Under the pieces are notes generated by a model. That model was not told where the DNA came from, did not search any database, and saw only the letters and a list, made by a program, of their open reading frames with translations. Positions 27,843 through 49,280 of a stretch of 64,000 nt of DNA are shown piece by piece (positions within the stretch are counted from its first letter, which is position 1; each line of letters opens with the position of its first letter). The DNA comes from Trypanosoma brucei (lineage: Eukaryota): NCBI GenBank assembly GCA_000002445.1, contig CM000207.1, positions 1,056,001-1,120,000 of the forward strand, in the 5' to 3' direction. The position numbers were made by a program, and so were the translations under genes.

Positions 27843-28865
27843 ATGAACTCCCCTCACGACTCGGGGCGCTCATCCGCAACGAGTACGGCGCATTCTGTGG
27901 GTTCATTGGGCGATAGCGGTGGGGCACAAAAAGATCATTCTAATCCGCTCCCTGAGAAGGAAGATGAGGAGGGCGTAGCATGGGATGAAAGGCTCAGGTA
28001 CTTTGTTGGCGTTGTGAAAAGTGCGTTCGATGCCATGAGGTCAGAGCAGCGGCTATGCAATGGCTCTGTTTGCTCCAAGCGGTTGCAGGATCGAATAGAG
28101 TGGGACTACCCAGCTGAATATGCCACATTTGTCAACGGTTTGTTCAACCGTTCGTGGGACCGTTTCCTTGAGGCAAAAACAGATATTGTCTGCTATCCCC
28201 ACAATGAAGGCGGTGCGGAGTCCAACACCAAGTGGTTGATGGCCCATGGTTCTCTGCGTTGTCGACTGCGGACAGAGGATATAAACCGCGTTCGGGATGC
28301 AGATGAAATGCTGGGGCGAATGGTTCGCGACAAGTGCTTGTGGGATCTGGAGGATGCCTGTCGCTCTATCCTTATGGAGGTGTTTCTCTCCATGGATGCC
28401 TCTGCCATTGTGTGTAAGGGGTGCATGCGACTGAACAAGAGTGAACAGTACCATCTTGGGAGTTTGGCGGTGTGGGAGCCCATCCTTGCAAGGTTATGGG
28501 GCCGGCAAACTGTTGGTGGTGCTGTGCGACTTCGTGACATGGAGCGCCCTTCCCAGCAGCTGGGGTTTCACGTCCGGCTGAGGTGCCGCTGGACGGAGCT
28601 TCTAGGGAACAATCTTCTCGCAAAATGCATATGTGGATCTGTTCTCCGCGTTTTTCTTAATGTTGAAAAGCCAGAAATGCTCCCTGTCGCGGGTGCCGGC
28701 GCAAGGCCTGCGAAGGAGGAGTTGGCGGTGAAACTACATCAGCCGTCTGGCGAATTGATTGTGGCTCTAGGCGACACTGGTTTATGGGGCCGCCGGCCTC
28801 CGTCCTCCCAGCCGAATCCCCCCTTTTTGGCCTGTTGCAGGGGATACCCGCGTCACACGAGATAG
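27843..28865 (+). CDS. Hypothetical Cys-rich protein, 340 aa
   Basis: ATG at 27843. It is a long + strand ORF in the array with no recognisable domain. Confidence 0.4.
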   Translation: MNSPHDSGRSSATSTAHSVGSLGDSGGAQKDHSNPLPEKEDEEGVAWDERLRYFVGVVKSAFDAMRSEQRLCNGSVCSKRLQDRIEWDYPAEYATFVNGLFNRSWDRFLEAKTDIVCYPHNEGGAESNTKWLMAHGSLRCRLRTEDINRVRDADEMLGRMVRDKCLWDLEDACRSILMEVFLSMDASAIVCKGCMRLNKSEQYHLGSLAVWEPILARLWGRQTVGGAVRLRDMERPSQQLGFHVRLRCRWTELLGNNLLAKCICGSVLRVFLNVEKPEMLPVAGAGARPAKEELAVKLHQPSGELIVALGDTGLWGRRPPSSQPNPPFLACCRGYPRHTR

Positions 28866-32586: not shown

Positions 32587-35500
32587 ATGTCGCCGTCAGC
32601 GCGGGAGGTGGAGGAAGTTGTACTATCTGCTGTGAGGAGAGGGGAGTGGGCTCACGCCGCCAATCTACTAGCTGGAGCGGCGCAGCTGCGGTGCGTCCCT
32701 ACCATTCGGACATATGCTGAGGTGATAGCCGCAAACTCATTGAATGGTACATGGGAGGACGCTGTGCGCGTTGTTGACCTTCTACAGAGCAGTCCACTTT
32801 CCAGCCGTGCTCTCCTGTGCACAGCCGCTGATGCGCTCCTCATGAAACCCAGTGTCTGTGCAACAGAGAAGCTTTTTTCAATTATCCTCGCGGCTCGTCG
32901 CCGCCGCGTGCAGATGGAAGTTCGCCACCAGGTTCAATGTAGTCGTCTGCTTGTGGAGGCAGGAGACTGGCAGCGTGCACTTACGTTAGGGGCGTATGGG
33001 CGACCCGTCAGACAAATCCCTGCATTAGCGTCCCCAATGATGCTTGCTGCAGCCACTGGCCGGCGGTGGATGGAAGGATCGAGGATCATGGCTGACTTAC
33101 TTATCTCGGGAACCGTCCCAGGCGCAGATGTTGCAAAAAATTACATCCGCTGCTTCACACCCACAGGACCATGGTGGCGCGCACTTGCAGTAGTGTCGGT
33201 ATTAGTCTGTAGTAGTGACGCTGGTGTAACTGCCGCAGCGCGCGGTCTTCTCAGGGAAGTAAGGAGCGGAGTGGGCGAAGCGGAACTCGCTGCGAAAAAG
33301 GCGAGGTATCAGACAGTTTTACGCCTTGTTGAGCGTCGTGGACCGTTGAATGACGTCTCCGTGGAGGAAGCATCTTATGTATTGAACGCGTTGGGTGAAG
33401 AGCGGTGGGAAGAAGCCCTTGGTATCATTCGTGCGTTCCCGTCGTTGTTAAGTTTTACACCCCGACCACGTGCCGTCCTGTTGCCCACGGCTGTACATAA
33501 AACCCAGGCGGGTTGCTACAAGCACTGGGAGTTCGTATGGAAGGTGCTTTCTTCAGGTTTTAGTAGTAACTCTGCAGAGCACGTCTTCGGCGCGGCCACC
33601 TGCTTTGCGTCGTATGTGTCGTCTGCTTGCAGGGCGGGTGAGGAGCAGTCGGAGTGTATGCGAGAAGTGGAACTCATGGGGAACAGTATGAGTTCTTCAA
33701 TAGTGGACTACCGTGCCCTTGGGGGTGGACTTCCAGAGTACGATGTCCTTAACTCCTTCGTACGCGCTTCCTGTGCATGCGGATGGTGGAAGGATGCTCT
33801 TCTGCTTTCCGAACGCCGGGCTGTTGTGCTCCGGGAACTTCTAGAGGTCGGGCCATGGCAGGCAGCACTCGCAGTATACGAAGGGATGCCACCAAGCGCC
33901 CGGGAGCGTATGGGACCTAAGCTTGAATACCTGTTCATCTCCAGAGGGCTCTGGGTGCCCGCACTACAGTACGCACAGCAACGTCTCCCGCGGGATACGC
34001 TACCGCTCCGCAACCTTTCTATACCTCTCTGTGCAGCCCTTGGTCAGTGGGGCCGAACGCTGCATCTGTTGGATCGCTACGTTAGCTTGCCCACCGACAC
34101 GGAGAAAATATTGAGGAAGAAATGTATCACGAAGGATGCTGAGGATTCGGTGCGTGCCGCCTGTGAAGCCGGTGACTGGGTGAGGGCACTCCGGGCCTGG
34201 TCACGGGTTTATTCAGTACCTCGCAGGCAAAGACAACCCGTCTTAGATGAAAGTAGGAGACGTTTTGAAATGGTGCCTGAGGTTGTGAAACAGCTTGCGA
34301 AGCTGTTACTTGCCGCTAAGCGCTATGACGAGTGCTGCGGTGTGGTTTCTTCCCACACACCAACACCGTCCGATCCTGTTGTTCTTCGTTGTCTGCAGCT
34401 CTTTAACGGGGTCCGCTCATCACCGCTAACGTACGGCAGGCTTTTGCAGGAATATAGGGAAGCTCACAAGCATCACCGTGTGTTGGTGGAATGCTATGCC
34501 GTTCTTGCACTTTGCGTGAGTGGAAACTTTTGTGGTGCCTTCTCAGTAGTTCAGCAGCTAACGGCGCAGAATTTCGGTAGACTTGAGAAGGATGTTACTG
34601 TCTTCAGCGTCCTTGAAGAGGTACCTCACTTGAAAGCGTATCTGCCACTCATCCTCTGCGCTGTGGCCACTCCCGCCAGGGCGGTGGAGCTGGAAGCAGT
34701 CATGGTTTCTCTTACTTGGTGTATTAAATTACCCAACGACACTGACCTATTTAACCGACCGCTTTCGGCCCTGTGGGGAAGCGGGGCGGATGAGCCCCGC
34801 GCTTGCGCATTTCGTGTGGCTGTGTTTGTCCTGCAGCACTCATTGGACCATGACCTTCCTTCCTCATGGGTTGTCATGGATGTTGTGGCAAGGAGTTTGG
34901 AAGATTCATCCAGACGTTCTGTGATTCACATGTTGTGTGAATCAGCGGTGCGCCGCCTTGCCTTTGATGCTGAGCAAAATGGCACCGAAAGCGGACAACA
35001 CGGAGTGCGACAAGGAAAGGGCCAGGAAGAAGTTAATGTTGTGTTTCGAAGTTGTGCAACAGCGTTTGCTCGAAAGGGGCTATGGGAACACGCTCTCGCT
35101 TCGATACAGCACTGCGAGACTGTCGATGCGGGAACCCTACTCAGTATTATCGTTTTCACAAAAGAGTTGCGGGAGCGGCGTTTGGCAACGGCCCAGCGCA
35201 TTGTTCTGGAGTTGGAAACAAGGAGGCGCAGTGATGGTGACGAACCTGAATACCCACCCGGCACGTCCGTGTCTAAGGGCCGCGTTGAGAGTGCACTGGT
35301 GGCGCTGACGGAGCTGCGGGCATGGCGAGCAGCCCTCGTCTTATTTAACTCTGAGGAAGCACAACTCTGTCTGCTGAGCAGTGGGGTTCGTAAAACTTCA
35401 AGCACTGTGGTGGGGTTACTTGTTTCTTGTGTCGCCGTTTCTGGTCCATGGGAGTTATCGTTGCGCCTGCTCGAAGCTGTGCATTGTAATATCTTGCCAA

Positions 35501-37542
35501 GCTGCCCGCTAGTTGAGAAAGGTCTCACGGATGTTCTCGGGGCGGTGGACAGTGGTAGTGGTGCTGCCATGTGCAGCCAAGTACTTCTGTTCATGGTGGA
35601 AAGAATGGGCGTCGTACCGACATCAGGGCAGTATGGTCTGTTGTTGCGTTCATGCCTTGAAGTCCGCTTGACAGTGGCGGAGCGGGAGCTGTGCGCCCGT
35701 ACTTTGAAGCGCCTCAGTCGTTGTCTTAATGAAAGGCAGGTCGTTGACCTTGTAGGGGCAATTAGCACATCTCGGCTGCCGTCAAATCCGTGGAACGAGG
35801 AAGGTCATCCCGGCACTTTGTATTCTTTCCCAACAGGGTCCCTATCAAAAAAAAGAGTGCAGCAGCTGGCGCCCGCGTTGGGTTGGATGAGAGAGGACAG
35901 ACCTTTTCTGAATGACGGAGAGTTAAATCAGCTATGTGAAATAGCTCCACTGGTTACTATTCTCAATGCACAGGATATGGAGAGGCTTTCACAGCAGTTC
36001 TTGGGTGGGCGCTTTGCTTCCTTTGAGCTTATGCTCGTGCTTCAACACTACCGGCAGGAGTTAATGGAGATGTTTGAACAGAATGGCGACGATAGTGTGA
36101 ATGTATCGTTGCTTGAGCACTGTAGGGGATCTAGGCTGTTGCATATTATGCTCGTACCTTACGAGCAGTTGTCACACAATATGATTTGCAACGGTAATGA
36201 ATCCAGTGCAATGTCCTTCCTGCAGGAAGTTCGGTGGGGAGTGTTCCGTGGCTTTGCATCGGTACGGACCGTTGCTGCGGTATGGGAGGCGTGCCGCTCA
36301 TTAGTGTCGGACCTTGCTGCGGGTCGGTGGACCCGGTTGTGCGAGTGTGAATTGCTGACAGAAGTGAGGCGGCGCCGCGGACGACCGCCAGTGTCTCTGA
36401 TCACACGGCCAGGCGCCACCCGCAGCGAAATAGCAAAGTACTGGGCAACATACGGCCGCATTGTGTGGCCGGAGTTGTACTTTAGCGGGCCTGAATTATG
36501 CCAACTTGCCGTGTATGTTCCTCTACTGGAGCCATTACTTCGTAGAGATCAAGAGCTGCGCGAACTCGTTTTCGGTATCCACGCATCACACTTTGCTTTC
36601 CACTCTATACCAAGTGGGGAACTGTTGTTCAGGCGACCGCGGTCACCCGAAGCAATCCGTGCGGTGATTCATCTGGTATTTGGTAAGCTAAAACGTCTTC
36701 ACTCTGAACTGGACGCCGATAAACGAGGTGCACGTCGTTACTATCGTCACACACCCGATATGGTGCTGTGGCAGCGCACGGAGCGTGCCATACAAAAGCG
36801 GCAGGAGAGCGCAGACCAGTCAGCGATGGGCGGCACGGTAGAAGAGCAAACGCCGAGGTGGTCGCTCGCATTGCGCATTTTGTACCACTATCGACGTTCT
36901 ACCAAAGTTACTCTTAAAGTAACCGCACTTGCTGCCTTATTCTCAGCATGTGCCGCGGACGTGGAGGGCGGTAACGTTCAAATTTCTTGTCAGTCTCGAA
37001 AGCAAGGGAAACGACTGGGAGAAATTTCGTGGTGGATGCTATCGATTTATTGTGCGCGGTTTGTTGAACCGAACCTAACTTTAACTATGTGGCGCGATGC
37101 GATGAAGTTGGCAGTCCTGCCGTCCGTATCCAATCCACCGAAGACTCTGCTCACTAGCACATATGGGTTGGAGGACATAAATGATATATCCCTGAGGGCC
37201 ACAATGCAAGTGCTGATGTGCCAAGTAAATGATGCCAGTGGAAACGGGCGGGTGCCCTTCTCCACTTCGCTTCTTCTGGTTGATCAACTGAAGGAGTCAC
37301 TATCTGCTCCACATCACTTTCCATCGTACTGTGTTTCTTTGGATGTTTACCGTTGTTATCGTCCCTTGGAGTGTGCGAGTAAGGGTGAGAGCGATGCTCT
37401 TACCGTGTGGTCATTGTTGCAGACCCATCGCTGCTTGGAGAAAATGGAACCGCTCCATGCGAACTTAGTTCGGCGGATGCTGTTGGGTGGGAAGGGTTTT
37501 GGGGAGACAGGGACTTGTAGTCGCTGCAGGAAGGGTATTTAA
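32587..37542 (+). CDS. Large alpha-helical repeat protein, 1651 aa, possibly pentatricopeptide-repeat-like
   Basis: ATG at 32587. Helical motifs of the form 'G(D/T/P)W(x)xAL' recur throughout: NGTWEDAVRVV, EAGDWQRALTLGAYG, TGPWWRALAVV, ERWEEALGII, CGWWKDALLL, VGPWQAALAVYEGMP, RGLWVPALQYA, EAGDWVRALRAWSRV, KGLWEHALASI, SGPWELSLRLLEAV. This is the hairpin signature of PPR/TPR-type solenoids. Confidence 0.55.
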   Translation: MSPSAREVEEVVLSAVRRGEWAHAANLLAGAAQLRCVPTIRTYAEVIAANSLNGTWEDAVRVVDLLQSSPLSSRALLCTAADALLMKPSVCATEKLFSIILAARRRRVQMEVRHQVQCSRLLVEAGDWQRALTLGAYGRPVRQIPALASPMMLAAATGRRWMEGSRIMADLLISGTVPGADVAKNYIRCFTPTGPWWRALAVVSVLVCSSDAGVTAAARGLLREVRSGVGEAELAAKKARYQTVLRLVERRGPLNDVSVEEASYVLNALGEERWEEALGIIRAFPSLLSFTPRPRAVLLPTAVHKTQAGCYKHWEFVWKVLSSGFSSNSAEHVFGAATCFASYVSSACRAGEEQSECMREVELMGNSMSSSIVDYRALGGGLPEYDVLNSFVRASCACGWWKDALLLSERRAVVLRELLEVGPWQAALAVYEGMPPSARERMGPKLEYLFISRGLWVPALQYAQQRLPRDTLPLRNLSIPLCAALGQWGRTLHLLDRYVSLPTDTEKILRKKCITKDAEDSVRAACEAGDWVRALRAWSRVYSVPRRQRQPVLDESRRRFEMVPEVVKQLAKLLLAAKRYDECCGVVSSHTPTPSDPVVLRCLQLFNGVRSSPLTYGRLLQEYREAHKHHRVLVECYAVLALCVSGNFCGAFSVVQQLTAQNFGRLEKDVTVFSVLEEVPHLKAYLPLILCAVATPARAVELEAVMVSLTWCIKLPNDTDLFNRPLSALWGSGADEPRACAFRVAVFVLQHSLDHDLPSSWVVMDVVARSLEDSSRRSVIHMLCESAVRRLAFDAEQNGTESGQHGVRQGKGQEEVNVVFRSCATAFARKGLWEHALASIQHCETVDAGTLLSIIVFTKELRERRLATAQRIVLELETRRRSDGDEPEYPPGTSVSKGRVESALVALTELRAWRAALVLFNSEEAQLCLLSSGVRKTSSTVVGLLVSCVAVSGPWELSLRLLEAVHCNILPSCPLVEKGLTDVLGAVDSGSGAAMCSQVLLFMVERMGVVPTSGQYGLLLRSCLEVRLTVAERELCARTLKRLSRCLNERQVVDLVGAISTSRLPSNPWNEEGHPGTLYSFPTGSLSKKRVQQLAPALGWMREDRPFLNDGELNQLCEIAPLVTILNAQDMERLSQQFLGGRFASFELMLVLQHYRQELMEMFEQNGDDSVNVSLLEHCRGSRLLHIMLVPYEQLSHNMICNGNESSAMSFLQEVRWGVFRGFASVRTVAAVWEACRSLVSDLAAGRWTRLCECELLTEVRRRRGRPPVSLITRPGATRSEIAKYWATYGRIVWPELYFSGPELCQLAVYVPLLEPLLRRDQELRELVFGIHASHFAFHSIPSGELLFRRPRSPEAIRAVIHLVFGKLKRLHSELDADKRGARRYYRHTPDMVLWQRTERAIQKRQESADQSAMGGTVEEQTPRWSLALRILYHYRRSTKVTLKVTALAALFSACAADVEGGNVQISCQSRKQGKRLGEISWWMLSIYCARFVEPNLTLTMWRDAMKLAVLPSVSNPPKTLLTSTYGLEDINDISLRATMQVLMCQVNDASGNGRVPFSTSLLLVDQLKESLSAPHHFPSYCVSLDVYRCYRPLECASKGESDALTVWSLLQTHRCLEKMEPLHANLVRRMLLGGKGFGETGTCSRCRKGI

Positions 37543-37680: not shown

Positions 37681-37705
37681 CTTTATCGATGTCTTTTTTT
37701 TTTTT
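37681..37705 (+). promoter_or_regulatory. Poly(T) tract upstream of the KAR5/GEX1-like gene
   Basis: 'cgatgtcttttttttttttaaaaactcttgg' lies ~110 nt upstream of the ATG at 37818. Confidence 0.3.
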
Positions 37706-37817
37706 AAAAACTCTTGGATGCAAACACGTGCACATAGACAAACATTCATTATTATCAGTGGGTTCGTGGTTGCTAAACATCGATATTGCAGTGAGGAAAG
37801 CGGCTTTTAAGCTTCCG

Positions 37818-39302
37818 ATGCACCGTACCAGTTTACGCCTAACCATTGTACTTTTCTGCACACTGCTCAACTTTCCAGGCCTTGCGGTGGCGTGGTTCTA
37901 TTCGCCTCTCTCCGCTGCTAAGCAGCAAGCAGACAACAAAGCACCGCTACCGACGGCTGGCGACCATCGTCAGCAGCAGCGACGACGAGCTTCAGTTCAC
38001 ATGGAGTTTCTTAGGGAGAAGAGAGCTGGGGGTGTTGGGAGTGGCCAGCTGACGCAGTTGTGGGCGGAGGCTGAGGCGAAGGGGAGTGTTTCCTCCTGCT
38101 GGAAAAAGGCTCTAGATGAACTGAAAAGTGGATGCAGATCGCTGCGCACGGACGATGGAGCGAGGAGCTGGTTGGCGCTAACCATGGCGACATGTGATGA
38201 TGAAACCGATGGACGGCGGCGTAGCTGGCCCCGCTGTGAAAGCAGAGACAAAATCCAGGACTGTATATACGGTTTAGATGATACACACTATTTAGTTTAT
38301 GTGCAGTACAAGCTTCATACCGACGTTCTTTGCCTCTATATCCAAGAGGAGTCATTTCAAGAGCGTACTGAGGCTGCGGTGCACGCACTGCACACCAGCT
38401 CGATGACAGCAGCAGAGACCCTTGGTGACCTGCATCACTCTAACAAGGAATTGCTGTCATCCATGGGTGACGCCACTGAGCAGCAAAGATTGAATGTTGC
38501 GGAGACGAAGCGGCTTCACCATCAACTGCAGGACATCCAGAAAGGTCAAACGACTGCCTTTGAATCGCTGAAAAGTTCGGCTCAACGCATAACAAGAACA
38601 GTGGAGGATGCATCGTTGCACCTTCAACAACTGCACGCAGCAATTGATGAAGGCGCTGCACGCTCCGTTGCGGCACTAAGGAATGTCGCTCAGGAGGCGG
38701 AGGCATTCCAGAGTCGGACGGAGCTTCATGTTACCGGCATGCTCCGCGGATTGGAGCGGCTCGAGGTTTTCGTGCAGTTGCTTTTGGATGGGACGGTAGG
38801 CATAAGTGAGATACTGCGGGGCGTAGCACTTATGACTATGGTATTGTTGCTCACAATGCCAGCGAGGACTAGTGAAGCACGGCTCCCTTGCCTTTCTCTA
38901 GCTGCGGCAGCATACGCAGTGCGTCCGTTACTTTCAACTTCGCTTCGCAGCACCGTCACCGCGAGGTCATTCCTTACGGCACTCTCTTTCGCAGAGATCT
39001 CTGTACTGGCATACTATGCGTTGATGTACCGCACACCGGAGGAGGCTCTTCGGAGGTTGTTCCGGAGGGAAGTAAAAGGTGCGCTGGACGAGATGTGGGT
39101 ACTTCAGCTGGAAGAAATACACACAACTGTTGACACAGCTTTTAGTACTGCATTTGCCCTGATTGCAGATAGTGAAGGTCGGCACGGATGTTTGAAGGGC
39201 ACTGTGACCCCACGAAATGTTGACACAGAGGAGATCGATCCGACGGATACCCGAAAGGTAGTGCGGAAAATAACAAGCCGAAGCCGATCTCGGCGTGTCT
39301 AA
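37818..39302 (+). CDS. Membrane protein with the KAR5/GEX1 nuclear-fusion-protein architecture: signal peptide, Cys-rich ectodomain, coiled coil, C-terminal TM helices. 494 aa.
   Basis: ATG verified at 37818. The N-terminus 'MHRTSLRLTIVLFCTLLNFPGLAVAWF' is signal-peptide-like. Cys cluster: 'CWKKALDELKSGCRSL…TMATCDDE…WPRCESRDKIQDCIYG…LCLYIQ'. A long helical/coiled region follows. At the C-terminus there are 2-3 hydrophobic helices ('GVALMTMVLLLTM', 'SLAAAAYAVRPLL', 'FLTALSFAEISVLAYYALMY'). Confidence 0.45.
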   Translation: MHRTSLRLTIVLFCTLLNFPGLAVAWFYSPLSAAKQQADNKAPLPTAGDHRQQQRRRASVHMEFLREKRAGGVGSGQLTQLWAEAEAKGSVSSCWKKALDELKSGCRSLRTDDGARSWLALTMATCDDETDGRRRSWPRCESRDKIQDCIYGLDDTHYLVYVQYKLHTDVLCLYIQEESFQERTEAAVHALHTSSMTAAETLGDLHHSNKELLSSMGDATEQQRLNVAETKRLHHQLQDIQKGQTTAFESLKSSAQRITRTVEDASLHLQQLHAAIDEGAARSVAALRNVAQEAEAFQSRTELHVTGMLRGLERLEVFVQLLLDGTVGISEILRGVALMTMVLLLTMPARTSEARLPCLSLAAAAYAVRPLLSTSLRSTVTARSFLTALSFAEISVLAYYALMYRTPEEALRRLFRREVKGALDEMWVLQLEEIHTTVDTAFSTAFALIADSEGRHGCLKGTVTPRNVDTEEIDPTDTRKVVRKITSRSRSRRV

Positions 39303-39787
39303 ATGGAAGCAGCGTGCCGGTGCCGCCGCTGCACCAAAGCTTACTTGACTCAATGATGAGAGTACTTCCGTTTCTTTCCTCTATTTTTTGTTACCCTTTG
39401 TTACCCTTGTTTTTATCAGCATCGTCAAATTCAATGTTTTTCTACTTTCCTTCATTCATTTTCTCGTTTCTTAGTTTGTTTATTGACTGGTCCGTTATAT
39501 TTTATGGCATTGTGGCTTGCAATGTGTTTGTTGCCCTCAGGGAAGATGGGGTTTACTGCAGACGTGAGGAGCACTCTCACAGCAAAGCTCAACTACTTGA
39601 CTTATTTCCCTCCTTTGACACATCCATTACTTCATTTCCTTGAAAGGAAGGGAAATGTGTTATTTGGTGATGTCCTCCCTCCCACTGATGCTGCGGGTGG
39701 TGTGTAAATATTCTTGTGCCTCTCCTGCGTTCGTTTATTAAATCTTATCTTCTTCCCTTCCTCTGTCGTGTTTTATATCAAAAGGTG

Positions 39788-40681
39788 ATGATACTCCCTT
39801 CTGCCCCTCCTGATTCGTCGTCCGTAAGTAATGAACTGATGGGGTGGGCGTACGTTACGAATCAGTTGCTCTTGGACAACGCGCGGCGTGTGGTCACGGA
39901 GGTCGAAGAGCCCTCACGACGTGCCGACCTTGCGGCGGAGTGGGCAGCGGGTTTGGCAGAGCTTCTACACGTGCGTAGCACCTGCGTTTCCTCCATGTTG
40001 TGCCGATTAGTGACGGGGAACAGCAGAGAGGGTACCGAGTATGGAGTAGGGGAAACGATGGGCCTGTGTGCAGAGAATGACCACCGCGAGGCTGCCGAAC
40101 TAAACCGCCTTGAGGCCGCCCGGCGTGAACTTCATCAGTTGCGTGCAGAGCGAGAGGCAGAAAAGCAGTGCCTACGGAGGATGCGCCAATGTGTGAAGCA
40201 AGCATCTAATACTTTCGAAGAGCAGTTTGGCGTCCAGGTTTTCGCACCGAACGTGGAGGACGACACATCTGTGAAGGTAGCGGAATTACAAGATAGTCTT
40301 GCTGCGTACGTGGAGGCTACACAGAAGAAGCAAGTGCAGCTCCAAGAAGAAGTAGCGGCGCTTCGAGTGTTGTTGAAAAGCTGTGAACAGGAAGGGGGCC
40401 AACGGCACGCGTTGCGGGTAGGAGGAACGCCACTTTCATTCCCTTCGCGTAGTAATGGGACGCAGTATTCTGGCGTATTCGTGGGTGAGACGCCGTATGG
40501 TTTAGCACACACTGCAATGGGGGGCTCCCGGCCACAGCAACAGTTGTTACAGAGGAACGCCGACGGTGCAGCTTTCTCTCCTTTTCAGGGGGATCTCTCA
40601 ACCTCAGGGTTGGCTAATGCAGTCCGGGCTTGGAAAGAGAGACAACAGCGACTAAAGGAGGAGTTGCGCAACCTGCAGTGA
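39788..40681 (+). CDS. Hypothetical coiled-coil protein, 297 aa
   Basis: The track's start at 39716 is a GTG. The first ATG is at 39788. The charged helical region 'AAELNRLEAARRELHQLRAEREAEKQCLRRMRQ…' is present, and no enzymatic motif. Confidence 0.4.
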   Translation: MILPSAPPDSSSVSNELMGWAYVTNQLLLDNARRVVTEVEEPSRRADLAAEWAAGLAELLHVRSTCVSSMLCRLVTGNSREGTEYGVGETMGLCAENDHREAAELNRLEAARRELHQLRAEREAEKQCLRRMRQCVKQASNTFEEQFGVQVFAPNVEDDTSVKVAELQDSLAAYVEATQKKQVQLQEEVAALRVLLKSCEQEGGQRHALRVGGTPLSFPSRSNGTQYSGVFVGETPYGLAHTAMGGSRPQQQLLQRNADGAAFSPFQGDLSTSGLANAVRAWKERQQRLKEELRNLQ

Positions 40682-40919
40682 GGGAATGACGGCTAGTTCA
40701 TCATTATTCCAGTTTTCCCAATCCATGACTTTCCTTTTCGAAAGTACAGGCACCCCATTCCAGAGAAAGAAACACTAATGCTTGGTGCGTGTGAGTGGAA
40801 ACTTTCCTGTTTTAACATTTGCATGTATTGCGCCGTGAAACATCCCTTTGCCCTTTGTTTTTCATTATTTTCAATCACTTAGTCAGTGGGACCTGCATCA
40901 AGTCATAGTTGGGTCACAT

Positions 40920-41834
40920 ATGAGTGAAACAAACCCAGTAGTGAGAGGTGCCGTTGGTGTACATGAACTTGCACCACTCTGTTCTCACGTTTGTTTGCCA
41001 GGGGAATCGGTGCTACTGCTGGAACCCACGGCTGTCGTGACCCTTGGTAGTGGTCTTCATCCACTCCAACAAGATGGCAGTGATGACCGTAAGGAGAGTT
41101 TTGAAGCCTCAGGTGAAGAAGGAAGCACTGTTGTGGTTTCCGAGTTTTGTGGACCTGTGTTGCGCACCGCGGGGCCAAATCACACACAGCTATACAAACT
41201 CAATGGACCGGCGGCACGTCGCTACATGTACGCAGCCAGGGACCCCGTAGTGGCAATTGTAATGAAGAAGAACGCGAGTTATTACTCGTGCTATACTGGT
41301 GCTGCATCGTTGGCTGTGCTTGACGCTCTTGGCTTTGATGGTGCCACGAAAACAAACAAACCTCGATTACAAGAGGGTGACGTTGTTTATGCCTTTGTGA
41401 AAGGGAACGCTGATGCCTCATCCCTTGATACAAAGTTTGATGATGGTCGTGTGGTGGTTTCCTCCAGTGACGAGGTGGAACTAAGTTGCATGGCTGCTGA
41501 GGTCGGTTTAGTGGCGCGGGACTGGACCTCAGCAGAGGCAGTCTTTGGCCCGCTTGTGGGTGGCACAGTTGTTCGTGTCGCGTTACCTTATGCGCGCAGT
41601 CTTATCGACGGCCCTGCTTCGCGGTTGCTTGCACTGTTGGGAGATCGCGTGCCGTACGATGTGTGTGTTGGAGTCAACGGTCTCGTCTGGGTGCGAGGAC
41701 ATCCCAGTGCTGCTGACCCCACGGCAGCCGCCCGCCGTACTGTTGCTGTGGCGGCGTGTGTAGTTGAGGCGCAGGATGCCGCGACACTGGAGGAGATGGA
41801 AGCCCACGTACGCGGTTATTTTCCCAAGGAGTAA
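40920..41834 (+). CDS. Exosome cap subunit-like RNA-binding protein with S1 and KH folds, RRP40/RRP4-type, 304 aa
   Basis: ATG verified at 40920. 'GDVVYAFVKGNADASSLDTKFDDGRVV' is S1-like. The C-terminus 'FGPLVGGTVVRVALPYARSLI…LLALLGDRVPYDVCVGVNGLVWVRG' matches the RRP40/RRP4 KH consensus '…LGxxFPFEVAVGMNGRIWV'. Confidence 0.5.
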   Translation: MSETNPVVRGAVGVHELAPLCSHVCLPGESVLLLEPTAVVTLGSGLHPLQQDGSDDRKESFEASGEEGSTVVVSEFCGPVLRTAGPNHTQLYKLNGPAARRYMYAARDPVVAIVMKKNASYYSCYTGAASLAVLDALGFDGATKTNKPRLQEGDVVYAFVKGNADASSLDTKFDDGRVVVSSSDEVELSCMAAEVGLVARDWTSAEAVFGPLVGGTVVRVALPYARSLIDGPASRLLALLGDRVPYDVCVGVNGLVWVRGHPSAADPTAAARRTVAVAACVVEAQDAATLEEMEAHVRGYFPKE

Positions 41835-45271: not shown

Positions 45272-46423
45272 CACAGTTGTGTGCATGTATGTTTGCATTT
45301 TTTCCGCCAAAGTATTTGGCGCATTTTACTATCATTGTATTGTAGGAACCGCTTAGGGATGTAGCGATAAAAGTCGAACCAGTCGCTCGTTGTATCTCTC
45401 TGCGACCATCATCGCTGTTTCACCTGCACCCTTTTCCCTCTCTGTACTTTTCATTACCATTTCCACTATTTAACAGTTTTGTTTTGGTTTCACTGCGTTT
45501 TTGTTCACCCTATTCATGCTCATGTCTCTGGGGATTTTGTTGTTATCGTTTCCCTCACCATTTCCCCTCTGAGGTGATGCTTGGGTGAAGGATGAAATTA
45601 AATTTCATCCACTCGGCCACTTCATGCACAGTTGCTCGAACAGCATCCACGCCTAGTGGGGAGAATGAGACTCCCGCATATTTGGTTTAGTCGCCTGACG
45701 CGGTTGTAGTAATTTTTTAAAATATTCACCATTATACTGTAATTTTTACGTTGCCTCCCCCCTTTCATTTTGTGGCGAAATCGTTTGCCATTGTGTTCTT
45801 TCCCTATTTTTTTTTTTTTTTGGTCGAGGGGAGAGTTCCCCAGACTCCAGTTGTTTTTCTCTACAAAAAATAACGACGCAAGGGCATAGTAACGTCCCCT
45901 AAGTTTGAAAACGAAAGGTGTGTTGAGTTGTGTGTAAATTCACCCATCCATACACCTCCTTTTTTACTTCATCTTTTTAATTTTACTTCGTGCATTCACC
46001 CTAACATCGATGTATCCGTGAAAAAAAGTAAAAAATAAAATAAAATAAAACCAAGGTTGTTTGCTCATTAGTTGCACGTGCCTGAAAAAGTGGTTCTTTT
46101 CTCGTTTGTTTTCCTAATTTCTTCCCTTTCCTCTTTTCTCTTAAAGTTTATGTGAATAATGAGTTGACTAACTAACAATCAAAAGCGCTGCATGTACGTA
46201 ACTGTAGAATGTATGTGTGTGTATGTGTATGGGGAAGGGGGCTCATACATTTAAACCATCGGAAAGGTCGGAAGTTAATATGCACCAGCTAAAAGAAAGG
46301 CGACAAGGCTAGAATAAAGACGGAGGATGCACACAAAACGGATAAAGCAAGTGGGGAACCAAATGTTGTTTTCAAACGCCTCTACCTTTCTTTGACGCAT
46401 TCTCACCAAAGACCGTTGCATCA

Positions 46424-46951
46424 TTTCCACAGTTCGGCACTTGCCTCACCAATGTGTCAGCGTCGAGCACCTTGCCTAGAACTCAGAAAAAGAGCCAACC
46501 TCCTTCTTTTTGTTATATCGAAACGGCATCGACAAATAACATAAGTCGGGTAAAGTAACCTCGCGCACGCATCCTTTCGAATATAAATGCATGCAAATGT
46601 GTTTTGTTGTTGCTTATCAATAAGAACCCAAATGCCATTTCCTAAAGAGACTAACGGAATGCGGGTGGTCGTTCATCGGATAGCGAGGCATTGTTACTTC
46701 GTAAATATGATTGTTGAGGACGCAGTAACTCCTTTATTTTCTCCTCCATCAGAAGTAAAACGCACGTACGTGAGGGTTTTGGAAAGTGGAATGACCATTT
46801 CTCCATGGTTACCGGCATATTGGAATGACACGAATGGACTTGCATCTAGTAAGCGACTGAAGTTTTGGCGGTGCAGTGCCACGCGCGGAAGTTGAATGTT
46901 CAGTGGGAAAAAGAAATGCCTCAACTTTCATCGTGTACTGGCAAGTGAGAA
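46424..46951 (+). repeat. Copy B of the same ~520-bp repeat. It carries the 102-aa ORF 46587..46895 that mirrors 14419..14727(-).
   Basis: About 98% identical to the reverse complement of copy A. The ORF-track proteins from the two copies differ at 2-3 residues only. Confidence 0.85.
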
Positions 46952-47277
46952 GTGTAAACATATTTTCTCATTTCATTCCTTTCCGTTGTGGTGTTGTGAC
47001 AATGAGGTGCCTTCCCTTATGGGGGCGGCACACACGTCTGCGTCGGTTTTAAAGTTCAATAACAGGTCATAGCACACACCAGTGGTGTGATTGTTGCTTG
47101 TGCCCATACCTTCTCTTCCTACGCTTTCCCTTTACTTTCCTCACTGCTTCATTTTTCTTCCCGTTTTTAAAGAAAAAATATTAATCGTTTCTGACACGTA
47201 TCCACACTCCTCTGCACGTGTGTATTTGTGTTTCTGCTTGAAGAAGTTAACGTTGCACTAAGAGACAGGAACAAGTG

Positions 47278-48165
47278 ATGGAGGGAAGCACTGCGCATCG
47301 GGGAGACAGTTTAGAGCTCCAACCGCTGATATTTAATGGCCCTGTTCCTAAACCACATCCGCCCTGCACTGATCCCACACCGGATGAGCAGTACCGCATG
47401 GCTTCTGAAGAGCAATTGAAAAAAATGGAAAAGAAGGACCAAAAAGCACCTCCTCCTGAGGAACAACCAGCGCCTGAGGGGGGAACTAAGGGCTCGAAGA
47501 TGTCTTCACTATTTTCAGGCGCCACCCGCAATATATGCAGCATTGCACATCAGGTGTCGAGTACAGTGGAGAGAGCTGCTGTAAAGGCATCAAATGCAAC
47601 AGGAAACAAAATGCGAGAAATTAACGAGCGGATGAACCACAGTTGGTTCAAGGAAAACTTCCCGCACTTAAGGGCACAAGGCGAGACACTCGTGGCGGAT
47701 TATCCTTGCTCCGCTATCCACGGACCAGGTTATGTTCATGGACGTGTTTATATCACAGCGAACAACCTTTGCTTCAGCACGGGTACGTCCTCTACGTTTC
47801 AGCGAACGAAAGACGTACTGAAGGCGGCTGCTTTTTCAGGGGATGGCAACGAACCAATCATACGGCAAATTATTCCCTTGGCAGATATTGCAAGTATTCA
47901 GCTCTCTGTTCACTTGGAGACAGCGAATAAGGGACCTCCATACTTCATGCTTCTCCCCGCTGAGGTGGTAATTCCAACCTGCCTTCAAGTATTCACCAGG
48001 CGGCAACAAGTGTTTCAGTTCTTCAGCTTCGGGAATCGCGATAAGACAGATTCACTGTCAGACACTTTGAAGGGGAAGCCGGTGGAGCAAGCTTACAATT
48101 ATATTGATCATGTATGGCGTGCTGCCACAACAGTTCCACTGCCGGGTGTTCAGTACACTCAGTAA
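47278..48165 (+). CDS. GRAM-domain-containing protein, 295 aa
   Basis: ATG at 47278; the track's start is a GTG at 47275. 'FKENFPHLRAQGETLVADYPCSAIHGPGYVHGRVYITANNLCFSTG…IIPLADIASIQ' follows the GRAM pattern (F…F…E.L…Y.CAL……G.LYIS.N.ICF.S ……IP…I.SI). Confidence 0.5.
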   Translation: MEGSTAHRGDSLELQPLIFNGPVPKPHPPCTDPTPDEQYRMASEEQLKKMEKKDQKAPPPEEQPAPEGGTKGSKMSSLFSGATRNICSIAHQVSSTVERAAVKASNATGNKMREINERMNHSWFKENFPHLRAQGETLVADYPCSAIHGPGYVHGRVYITANNLCFSTGTSSTFQRTKDVLKAAAFSGDGNEPIIRQIIPLADIASIQLSVHLETANKGPPYFMLLPAEVVIPTCLQVFTRRQQVFQFFSFGNRDKTDSLSDTLKGKPVEQAYNYIDHVWRAATTVPLPGVQYTQ

Positions 48166-49280
48166 ATATGTGAACTTAGGAAGGACAAGGATGGTCGTTG
48201 AATGGGAAGAACAACATGGAAAAAAGAAATGAAGGATAGGGTGTAAATGATGTTCTTTCCCCTACGGCTAATCTGCTTTGGCGTAACTCTCTGGAGAGCG
48301 CTTGTAGACAAAACAAAACGAAAAAGTATTGGAAAAGGTTTGTCCGAAGGAACAAGGTCGCGATATGTAGGTTCCCGCGTTCAACTTAAGGTTTGCACAA
48401 CACAAAATCGATTTTCGAAGAAAAAAAAATGCTCGCACGGTGTGAAAGAGAATGGAGCGAAGATACTGAAGAAAGGGGAAAAGGGGCTTCGGTACCGTGG
48501 AGAACACTGCTTTACTTATTTTTGTATTTTCCGTTTGCTTTCACACCTATGTTTGCGATCTTGGTCCCATACATGAATTACGAGGGCATCTGCTGAGGAA
48601 ACTCTGTCTATTGTTGGGAATGGGAAATGCACGCATAACGCATGTTTCCTTTACAACAACTACTCGCTTTACTACCTCTCTACTTTCGCTTGGTAACAAT
48701 TTTTAAAATTTTACGTGTAATTGAATCTCGCACATCTTTCCTTTTTTTTATCGCACTTTTCTTCAACTGTCTCACGTCTATACAGGAATTACCGTTGCGT
48801 TGCGGTTGGTGTGTGCGTGGGTGGCGGACTACTCGCCGCCCTCCATTAGTCGCTGCGAGAAGAAAAGTTGTTATTTTAGTTCTAAAGAAACTTTTGAAAA
48901 GGGGTGAGGGCGAAAGAGTAGAGAAAGTGCGGATGAGCGGGGATGTGATGTGTGGGTTTAGACTGCAAATGGGCGGAAGGAAGTTTAATTCAAGTGCATT
49001 TTATATTATGGTGTTGGGTACGTTGTGTGTGTACCTCCCCTCGGATGGGTCGTTAACTTGGAAAGCGCTCTAATGCCTTTGACAGCATGGCAGGGGGAGG
49101 TCCACTGAACCGAAAAGGTACTCACGACGTAGCGGTTCCTTCTTTTTAAATCCGATTACCCAAAATATGACGTCACACAAAACAATGTGGATGTGCTACT
49201 TTATGGCGGAGTACGGTCTGTTCAATGAGGAGTAAAATTGTTGTGACCGTAATTTTAACACTACCGGGGCCGGAGACAGA

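What the first reader, a model, noticed from the sequence alone, without database searches (positions are those of the whole stretch)
37818..39302. Candidate KAR5/GEX1/Brambleberry-type nuclear-fusion protein
The domain order matches the conserved architecture of the KAR5/GEX1 nuclear-envelope fusion family required for karyogamy:
- signal peptide
- a Cys-rich luminal region: C…C spaced in 'CWKKALDELKSGC', then 'TMATCDDE', 'PRCESRDKIQDC', 'LCLYIQ'
- an extended coiled coil
- two or three C-terminal TM helices

Nothing else about the protein gives it an obvious function. Sexual exchange is known in trypanosomes, so a karyogamy factor is biologically plausible. The assignment rests on architecture only.
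Basis: inference. Interest (0 to 1): 0.5.

Follow-up and report, generated by a model that had tools for sequence, protein, structure and literature searches.

The report
Trypanosome GEX1/KAR5 nuclear-fusion protein gene

Summary
The ORF is real.

**Family membership is supported by homology.** A profile of the Trypanosoma orthologues, searched against 1.84 billion proteins, gave 615 significant hits. These include proteins that databases name GAMETE EXPRESSED 1 (a conifer) and Brambleberry (Nematostella, Strigamia), at E about 1e-21. Direct BLASTP gives 2e-20 and 9e-20.

**The defining sequence features are present.**
- All six family-defining cysteines are present, with the family's usual spacing.
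- A second conserved motif follows the first membrane helix.
- The signal peptide, heptad-periodic luminal rod and 2-3 C-terminal membrane helices all fit.
- Pfam's Tht1 model (fungal Kar5) misses this protein, but it also misses the named GEX1 and Brambleberry proteins.

**The gene is an already-reported one.** The window maps exactly onto T. brucei chromosome 9, and the gene is Tb927.9.7040. Published single-cell data list that gene as a marker of the gamete/meiotic cluster, where the same paper reports highest GEX1 expression. The locus is syntenic with a Leishmaniinae chromosome.

**Verdict:** interpretation supported; finding already known. Nuclear-fusion function in trypanosomes is still inferred, not demonstrated.

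The parts
37818..39302 (+). Coding sequence of the GEX1/KAR5/Brambleberry-family protein (494 aa plus stop); equals T. brucei Tb927.9.7040 by coordinate mapping
   Evidence: ORF. Orthologue N-termini align from this Met. Profile and BLASTP homology to named GEX1 and Brambleberry proteins. Mapping offset 1,106,960 to Tb927_09_v5.1.
37692..37737 (+). Polypyrimidine tract (T12 at 37694-37705) followed by an AG at 37736-37737: probable trans-splice acceptor region. The annotated Tb927.9.7040 feature would start at 37738.
   Evidence: Sequence read directly. 37738..39302 is 1565 nt, the annotated span 1,144,698..1,146,262. Its function as a splice site is inferred.
37818..37895 (+). Predicted cleavable signal peptide (aa 1-26: MHRTSLR / LTIVLFCTLLNF / PGLAVA, then W)
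   Evidence: Kyte-Doolittle maximum 1.88. A25 and W26 are invariant in Trypanosoma. The -3/-1 rule was applied by eye; SignalP was not available.
38067..38390 (+). Cys-rich domain (aa 84-191) with the six family cysteines C94, C106, C126, C140, C149, C172 and the motif C-W-x2-A-x3-L-x3-C ... S-x-L-A ... C ... G ... C-x8-C-x22-C-x-[YF]-x-Q-x4-Q-x2-T-E
   Evidence: Cysteines conserved in 134-138 of 138 family rows, with modal or second-modal spacing. AF2 pLDDT is above 90 over this region. The T. congolense orthologue's sub-threshold Tht1 hit falls on this domain.
38343..38789 (+). Luminal helical rod / coiled-coil region (aa 176-324; helices 155-272 and 284-324 in the model)
   Evidence: AF2 DSSP. 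No proline; hydrophobic periodicity 3.55 residues, z = 7.3 for aa 176-272.
38802..38852 (+). Transmembrane helix 1 (aa 329-345)
   Evidence: Hydropathy; AF2 helix 329-345.
38853..38882 (+). Family-wide conserved juxtamembrane motif T-x3-R-T-x2-A-R (aa 346-355, TMPARTSEAR)
   Evidence: In 138 family rows: T346 in 120, T351 in 106, A354 in 101, R355 in 133. The motif is visible in the GEX1 BLASTP second HSP and in Nematostella Brambleberry 'TSSPRTANARL'.
38886..38942 (+). Weakly hydrophobic helix 2 (aa 357-375); possible second membrane span or re-entrant helix
   Evidence: AF2 helix 349-375. It falls below the hydropathy threshold of 1.3.
38967..39029 (+). Transmembrane helix 3 (aa 384-404)
   Evidence: Hydropathy maximum 1.59; AF2 helix 382-402.
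39030..39299 (+). C-terminal tail (aa 405-494): a confident helix at 407-453, then a disordered stretch ending in a basic R/S cluster (SRSRSRRV). Predicted to face the cytoplasm or nucleoplasm if there are three spans.
   Evidence: AF2; charge count; a basic C-terminus is present in all Trypanosoma orthologues. The topology is inferred.

Best explanation
The gene is the Trypanosoma brucei orthologue of GEX1/KAR5/Brambleberry (Tb927.9.7040).

Proposed architecture and topology:
- The protein enters the ER and nuclear envelope through a cleaved signal peptide.
- Its large N-terminal part lies in the perinuclear lumen. This part is a helical Cys-rich domain, presumably stapled by three disulfides formed from six invariant cysteines, followed by a long coiled-coil rod.
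- It is anchored by two or three C-terminal membrane helices, with a basic tail on the cytoplasmic or nucleoplasmic side.

Proposed function: by analogy with yeast Kar5p, Chlamydomonas and Plasmodium GEX1, Arabidopsis GEX1 and zebrafish Brambleberry, it is made in meiotic intermediates and gametes in the tsetse salivary gland. After gamete fusion it would act at the contact site of the two haploid nuclei to couple and fuse the nuclear membranes (karyogamy).

Shown here: family membership, architecture, orthology and synteny, and identity with a published gamete-cluster marker gene.

Inferred: localisation, disulfides, topology, and the nuclear-fusion role in trypanosomes.
For: Homology:
- The profile of 7 Trypanosoma orthologues gives 615 hits at E<=1e-3 and 260 at E<=1e-10 among 1.84 billion proteins, all matching over the Cys-rich domain and proximal rod.
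- Named hits include 'protein GAMETE EXPRESSED 1' (the Cryptomeria cluster of P0042) and 'Protein brambleberry' (Nematostella, Strigamia).
- BLASTP gives E 2e-20 and 9e-20.

Defining motifs:
- Six cysteines are conserved in 134-138 of 138 rows. The spacing x11-x19-x13-x8-x22 is modal or second-modal in the family.
- The juxtamembrane motif T-x3-RT-x2-AR is conserved, with R355 present in 133 of 138 rows.

Architecture: it matches the published family definition of signal peptide, Cys-rich domain with six Cys, 1-3 coiled coils and 2-3 TMs (PMC4291462 and PMC7586128; here).

Locus identity:
- One offset (1,106,960) maps window 37738..39302 onto Tb927.9.7040 and the ORF end at 28865 onto the end of Tb927.9.6960.
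- The predicted GRAM-domain neighbour is present.

Expression: Tb927.9.7040 appears in the marker list and the top-200 list of cluster C3 (meiotic intermediates and gametes). It also appears in the conserved-marker table from integration with a second dataset (Howick et al. 2022 supplements). The same paper states that GEX1 is highest in C3.

Synteny: the order large protein / GEX1 / 321-338 aa protein / RRP40 is shared with Porcisia hertigi. There the gene lies about 42 kb from the end of a 499-kb chromosome. This is compatible with Leishmania GEX1 = LmjF.04.0100 (PMC8794473).
Against: - No held paper states the T. brucei gene identifier for GEX1. Equating Tb927.9.7040 with the published 'GEX1' rests on my homology result, the matching expression pattern and my own recollection.
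- No functional or localisation data for any kinetoplastid GEX1 were found.
- The Pfam Tht1 (Kar5) model is not matched at threshold.
- The link from GEX1/Brambleberry to fungal Kar5 is taken from the literature and was not re-derived here.
- Signal peptide, transmembrane spans and coiled coil were judged with heuristics and AF2, not dedicated predictors.
Confidence: 0.85

Rival explanations
1. It is a true GEX1-family member, but in trypanosomes it does something other than karyogamy. Possibilities include nuclear-envelope or ER membrane remodelling during meiosis or gamete differentiation, or a structural role in the perinuclear lumen. Nuclear fusion would then be carried out by other factors.
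For: - Function has not been tested in any kinetoplastid.
- Yeast work leaves open whether Kar5p is the fusogen or an organiser.
- The transcript is detected in a minority of non-C3 cells. In the S3 conserved-marker table the cell fractions appear to be about 3% outside the cluster versus 41% inside. I did not read the column headers, so these figures are my reading of the row.
Against: - Every family member tested elsewhere is needed for nuclear-membrane fusion.
- Expression peaks in the gamete/meiotic cluster together with the gamete fusogen HAP2.
- The Cys-rich domain and the juxtamembrane motif are under strong conservation, which suggests a conserved mechanism.
Confidence: 0.12
2. It is a lineage-specific coiled-coil membrane protein whose resemblance to GEX1/KAR5 is only architectural (a chance or low-complexity match).
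For: There is no Pfam hit for the window protein. The PDB sequence hits are weak coiled-coil noise. The word-indexed homologue search found only Trypanosoma proteins.
Against: - E-values of 1e-21 to 1e-22 to named family members in a search of 1.84 billion sequences.
- The matched region is the Cys-rich domain, not the coiled coil.
- Six cysteines are in register, and a second conserved motif follows TM1.
Confidence: 0.01
3. It is a glucosamine-fructose-6-phosphate aminotransferase, as several database records name the T. grayi, T. rangeli, T. theileri and T. conorhini orthologues.
For: Only the names carried by those records.
Against: No glutamine-amidotransferase or SIS domain, nor any enzyme family, is hit in any orthologue. 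The protein is an all-helical membrane protein. The name looks like a propagated annotation error.
Confidence: 0.01

Closest known systems
GEX1 (GAMETE EXPRESSED 1) of plants, Chlamydomonas and Plasmodium
   Same: - Signal peptide, Cys-rich domain with six cysteines in register, luminal coiled coils, and three predicted C-terminal hydrophobic helices as described for GEX1.
- 27% identity over 191 aa to Cryptomeria GEX1, E 2e-20, plus a second HSP over the transmembrane region.
- Gamete-associated expression.
   Different: - Shorter than the plant protein (494 aa against about 600-630 aa), with a shorter rod.
- About 65 residues of poorly conserved, disordered linker lie between the signal peptide and the Cys-rich domain.
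- The middle hydrophobic helix is weak.
- Function is untested in trypanosomes.
Brambleberry (zebrafish; named orthologues in Nematostella and Strigamia)
   Same: 32% identity over 175 aa to Nematostella Brambleberry, E 9e-20. All six cysteines align. The juxtamembrane motif PRTANARL corresponds to PARTSEARL.
   Different: Brambleberry is described with two TMs and acts in karyomere fusion in embryos rather than in gamete nuclear fusion.
Kar5p / Tht1 (fungi; Pfam PF04163)
   Same: Same domain order. Six essential conserved cysteines lie in an N-terminal luminal domain (PMC4291462). The T. congolense orthologue's Cys-rich domain aligns to Tht1 profile positions 63-135 at E 0.015.
   Different: No Pfam match at the gathering threshold for any trypanosome sequence. 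Kar5p has two TMs, with both termini of the bulk protein luminal. Sequence similarity is too low to show with single-sequence methods.
Leishmania GEX1 (LmjF.04.0100)
   Same: Published as the kinetoplastid GEX1 and co-induced with HAP2 in mating-competent cells (PMC8794473). A Leishmaniinae orthologue (Porcisia hertigi P0019) has 33% identity over 295 aa, E 3e-47. It sits in the same gene order, about 42 kb from the end of a chromosome of about 0.5 Mb.
   Different: I could not retrieve the L. major protein itself, so the link to LmjF.04.0100 is by synteny and chromosomal position in a relative, not by direct comparison. The Leishmaniinae proteins are about 100 aa longer.

Membership tests
GEX1/KAR5/Brambleberry nuclear-fusion family | Significant sequence similarity to recognised members over the Cys-rich domain | tested here: met
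   Profile E 1.2e-22 (GEX1 cluster), 1e-21 and 8e-21 (Brambleberry) in a library of 1.84 billion proteins. BLASTP 2e-20 and 9e-20.
GEX1/KAR5/Brambleberry nuclear-fusion family | Cys-rich domain with six conserved cysteines near the N-terminus | tested here: met
   C94, C106, C126, C140, C149 and C172 are cysteine in 134-138 of 138 aligned family members. The spacing x11-x19-x13-x8-x22 is modal or second-modal. Definition taken from PMC4291462 and PMC7586128.
GEX1/KAR5/Brambleberry nuclear-fusion family | N-terminal signal peptide | tested here: met
   Basic n-region, hydrophobic core with Kyte-Doolittle 1.88, and AVA|W, conserved in orthologues. This is heuristic only; SignalP was not available.
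GEX1/KAR5/Brambleberry nuclear-fusion family | One to three luminal coiled-coil segments after the Cys-rich domain | tested here: met
   AF2 helices 155-272 and 284-324. Heptad-like periodicity z = 7.3, no proline. No dedicated coiled-coil predictor was run.
GEX1/KAR5/Brambleberry nuclear-fusion family | [quoted passage not shown] | tested here: met
   Hydrophobic helices at 329-345 and 384-404, plus a weaker one at 357-375. The conserved post-TM1 motif is shared with GEX1 and Brambleberry.
GEX1/KAR5/Brambleberry nuclear-fusion family | Expression in gametes or the mating stage | tested here: met
   This rests on a literature look-up, not a computation. The gene maps to Tb927.9.7040, which is listed among the markers and the top-200 genes of gamete/meiotic cluster C3. 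The paper says GEX1 is highest in C3.
GEX1/KAR5/Brambleberry nuclear-fusion family | Nuclear-envelope localisation | not testable with these tools
   Needs tagging and microscopy in tsetse-derived gametes.
GEX1/KAR5/Brambleberry nuclear-fusion family | Required for nuclear membrane fusion (karyogamy) | not testable with these tools
   No kinetoplastid knockout was found in the held literature.
Pfam PF04163 Tht1 (fungal Kar5/Tht1 model) | Score at or above the gathering threshold (21 bits) | tested here: not met
   No hit for the window protein. The T. congolense orthologue scores 14.5 bits, E 0.015, on the Cys-rich domain. Named GEX1 and Brambleberry proteins also get no hit, so the model covers only the fungal branch.
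Glucosamine-fructose-6-phosphate aminotransferase (the name on some orthologue records) | Glutamine amidotransferase and SIS domains | tested here: not met
   No such Pfam hits in the window protein or in six orthologues.

The most novel reading that the evidence does not exclude
Trypanosome GEX1 may itself be the nuclear-membrane fusogen. It would work as a disulfide-stapled helical head on a long coiled-coil hairpin, a fold with no solved structural relative (best PDB Foldseek E 0.97). Its gamete-restricted expression would then give the first molecular handle on the never-observed karyogamy step of the T. brucei sexual cycle. The conserved basic C-terminal tail might direct it to the inner nuclear membrane.
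Probability: 0.2. Interest if true: 0.5.

Novelty: already known. Interest (0 to 1): 0.2.

Why it matters
GEX1/KAR5, together with HAP2, is one of the few sex-specific proteins traceable to the last eukaryotic common ancestor. Its presence supports a conventional gamete-fusion-then-karyogamy cycle in trypanosomes.

For this scan the value is confirmatory. A tool-free reading recovered the correct family from architecture alone. The gene carries an uninformative name ('hypothetical protein, conserved') in the published T. brucei tables. In several Trypanosoma genome records it carries a wrong name ('glucosamine-fructose-6-phosphate aminotransferase'). The assignment is not new: T. brucei GEX1 and Leishmania GEX1 are already used as sexual-stage markers. 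What remains open is functional proof in any kinetoplastid.

Tried and rejected
- **Pfam scan of the window protein.** It gave only a spurious 17-bit helical match (Arg_decarbox_C). Scanning the orthologues gave one sub-threshold Tht1 hit. Scanning 88 family members gave no Tht1 hit at all, so Pfam cannot decide this.
- **PDB sequence search.** Only coiled-coil noise.
- **Word-indexed homologue search.** It returned only eight Trypanosoma proteins, even when given 7- and 138-sequence alignments. The exhaustive HMMER search was what reached the family.
- **AF2 with the 7-sequence alignment.** Poor model, pLDDT 51. The 138-sequence alignment gave pLDDT 78.
- **Structure searches.** The afdb50 Foldseek library was not available. 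PDB Foldseek gave nothing below E 0.97. The structure therefore adds architecture but no family evidence.
- **Key papers.** Ning et al. 2013 and Speijer et al. 2015, which define the family and its distribution, are not held.
- **Gene identifier in the literature.** No held paper contains 'Tb927.9.7040' in its main text. It appears only in supplementary tables.
- **GFAT annotation of orthologues.** Rejected, because no enzyme domains are present.
- **The longer 537-aa ORF starting at 37689.** Rejected, because that ATG lies on the polypyrimidine tract and orthologues start at the downstream Met.
Full report
**1. The observation**

The window has an ORF at 37689..39302 on the + strand (537 aa). 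Three things favour this start:
- The N-termini of the Trypanosoma orthologues align from this Met.
- The upstream ATG at 37689 lies directly on a T12 tract (37694-37705), followed by an AG at 37736-37737. This is the usual look of a trypanosome trans-splice acceptor region (inference).
- Window 37738..39302 is exactly 1565 nt, the annotated span of Tb927.9.7040.

Together they hold six cysteines: C94, C106, C126, C140, C149 and C172.

**2. Architecture**

- The N-terminus has a basic n-region (MHRTSLR), a hydrophobic core (Kyte-Doolittle maximum 1.88) and AVA|W. Ala25 and Trp26 are invariant in the genus. This fits a cleavable signal peptide by the -3/-1 rule. It is a heuristic; no SignalP was available.
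- AlphaFold2 with a 138-sequence alignment gave mean pLDDT 78, with values above 90 over residues 80-260.
- The model has a helical Cys-rich head (helices 75-91, 93-111, 113-130, 146-151). It runs into a very long helix (155-272), a turn, and a second helix (284-324).
- Membrane-proximal helices follow at 329-345, 349-375 and 382-402, then a confident cytosolic helix at 407-453 and a disordered basic tail.
- Residues 176-323 contain no proline. Residues 176-272 have a 3.55-residue hydrophobic periodicity that none of 2000 shuffles reaches (z = 7.3).
- Hydropathy supports two clear spans (329-345, 384-404) and one weak span (357-375).

**3. What it is**

- Direct Pfam and PDB sequence searches were uninformative.
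- The word-indexed protein search found only orthologues in T. congolense, T. vivax, T. grayi, T. conorhini, T. theileri and T. melophagium.
- A profile of these orthologues (A1) was searched exhaustively against 1.84 billion representative proteins. It gave 615 hits at E<=1e-3, 260 at E<=1e-10 and 24 at E<=1e-30. Nearly all matches cover profile positions ~75-255, the Cys-rich domain and the start of the rod.
- Cluster look-ups put names on some hits:
  - P0042 (E 1.2e-22) shares a 90% cluster with 'protein GAMETE EXPRESSED 1 [Cryptomeria japonica]'.
  - P0044 (E 1e-21) is UniRef 'Protein brambleberry' of Nematostella.
  - P0047 (E 8e-21) is 'Protein brambleberry' of Strigamia.
  - Other hits come from Acrasis, a heterolobosean, a dictyostelid, fishes and a lizard.
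- Pairwise BLASTP of the window protein gives 27% identity over 191 aa (E 2e-20) to the conifer GEX1. A second HSP covers the transmembrane region.
- BLASTP gives 32% identity over 175 aa (E 9e-20) to Nematostella Brambleberry.

**4. The family's defining features**

The literature defines the family by a signal peptide, a Cys-rich domain with six conserved cysteines, one to three coiled coils and two or three C-terminal TMs. It states that the six cysteines are conserved in every orthologue and essential in yeast Kar5p (PMC4291462; PMC7586128).

In a 138-sequence alignment of the hits:
- The six window cysteines are cysteine in 134, 135, 138, 137, 138 and 138 rows.
- The window spacing x11-x19-x13-x8-x22 is the most common or second most common value at every interval.
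- Further family-wide residues are shared: Trp95, Ala98, Leu102, Ala120, Gly132, His167, Gln176, Thr184, Glu185 and Leu191.
- A second conserved block follows TM1: T-x3-R-T-x2-A-R at residues 346-355, with R355 in 133 of 138 rows.

Pfam's only model for this family, PF04163 Tht1, is not matched at threshold.
- The best result is the T. congolense orthologue: 14.5 bits against a cut-off of 21, E 0.015.
- That match aligns residues 87-153, the Cys-rich domain, to profile positions 63-135.
- The named GEX1 and Brambleberry proteins and 86 other family members do not match it either.

The model therefore covers the fungal branch only, and the miss does not count against membership.

**5. Where it is and whether it is already known**

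Supplementary tables of Howick et al. 2022 (PMC8939820) give TREU927 coordinates for three chromosome 9 genes. A single offset of 1,106,960 maps them onto the window.

| Gene | TREU927 coordinates | Window position | Check |
|---|---|---|---|
| Tb927.9.7040 | 1,144,698..1,146,262 | 37738..39302 | Starts at the first base after the AG; ends at the stop codon |
| Tb927.9.6960 | ..1,135,825 | ORF end 28865 | End matches exactly |
| Tb927.9.7110 ('GRAM domain containing protein') | 1,153,107..1,155,179 | Near ORF 47275..48165 | That ORF has a Pfam GRAM domain, E 4e-8; its end is 54 nt off (48165 vs 48219; not followed up) |

The window is therefore T. brucei chromosome 9 at about 1.107-1.171 Mb, and the gene is Tb927.9.7040. 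That gene is annotated 'hypothetical protein, conserved' in those tables.

[quoted passage not shown] It is also in the conserved-marker table from integration with a second dataset. C3 is the cluster of meiotic intermediates and gametes. The paper's text says HAP2 and GEX1 are highly expressed there, and highest there.

Other papers state that T. brucei and L. major encode GEX1 homologues (PMC4810370) and give Leishmania GEX1 as LmjF.04.0100 (PMC8794473).

The orthologue in the Leishmaniinae species Porcisia hertigi (P0019, E 3e-47) lies at 41.7-43.4 kb on a 499-kb chromosome. Its gene order is the same:
- a large protein upstream (E 1e-39 to window 32587..37542);
- a 338-aa protein downstream (E 6e-8 to window 39716..40681);
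- then RRP40.

This fits a position early on Leishmania chromosome 4.

No held paper prints the T. brucei identifier next to the name GEX1. That last link rests on my homology result, the matching expression and my own recollection.

**6. Mechanism**

Shown here: family membership, domain order, conservation pattern, orthology and synteny, and identity with a published sexual-stage marker.

Inferred from the family (Kar5p in yeast, GEX1 in Chlamydomonas, Plasmodium and Arabidopsis, Brambleberry in zebrafish):
- The protein is inserted into the ER and nuclear envelope.
- The Cys-rich head and coiled-coil rod lie in the perinuclear lumen.
- The protein concentrates where two nuclei touch, and it is needed to couple and fuse the outer and inner nuclear membranes.

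Whether it is the fusogen or an organiser is unresolved even in yeast. No solved structure resembles the model (best Foldseek E 0.97). No kinetoplastid knockout or localisation was found.

**7. Rivals**

- A non-karyogamy role for a genuine family member cannot be excluded (about 0.12).
- Chance architectural resemblance is excluded by the E-values and by the motif register.
- The 'glucosamine-fructose-6-phosphate aminotransferase' name on several orthologue records is unsupported by any domain evidence. It looks like a propagated error.

**8. Verdict**

The finding is a correct rediscovery of a gene already used in the field as T. brucei GEX1. Interest is low (0.2). Novelty: already known.

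Noticed in passing
Orthologues P0005, P0006, P0008, P0009/P0162 (T. conorhini, T. grayi, T. theileri, T. rangeli): NCBI/UniRef records name these GEX1 orthologues 'putative glucosamine-fructose-6-phosphate aminotransferase'. No amidotransferase or SIS domain is detectable. It appears to be a propagated misannotation.
   Followed up: partly
window 40848-41834 (+): The ORF has RRP40_S1 and KH_6 domains (exosome component RRP40). The same gene lies two genes downstream of GEX1 in Porcisia hertigi (L001:14765-15763).
   Followed up: partly
window 47275-48165 (+), and 46147-48219 by mapping: A GRAM-domain ORF (Pfam E 4e-8) corresponds to Tb927.9.7110. The annotated feature is 2073 nt, but the window's uninterrupted ORF here is only 296 aa, and its end is 54 nt off the mapped end. 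Possible causes are a strain indel, a frameshift, or UTR included in the annotation.
   Followed up: no
window 32587-37542 (+): A 1651-aa ORF immediately upstream has no Pfam domain. It is conserved and syntenic with an 1877-aa protein in Porcisia hertigi (30% identity over 466 aa, E 1e-39).
   Followed up: partly
P0016 (3488 aa), residues 2277-2717: One hit from the exhaustive search carries the GEX1-like region inside a 3488-aa predicted protein. This is probably a gene-model fusion across a polycistron, not a real multidomain protein.
   Followed up: no
window aa 466-494 of the protein (nt ~39213-39299): The C-terminus ends in a basic Arg/Ser cluster (SRSRSRRV). All Trypanosoma orthologues also end in an R/S/T-rich basic stretch. 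It could be a sorting signal (inner nuclear membrane or ER retrieval).
   Followed up: no
window 1-64000: All 19 ORFs of at least 250 aa, except two antisense ones nested inside larger + strand ORFs, are on the + strand. Cumulative GC skew rises steadily. This is consistent with a single polycistronic transcription unit. Stretches at 12-20 kb and 44-50 kb have lower GC, and 28-30 kb has strong negative AT skew (-0.28).
   Followed up: no
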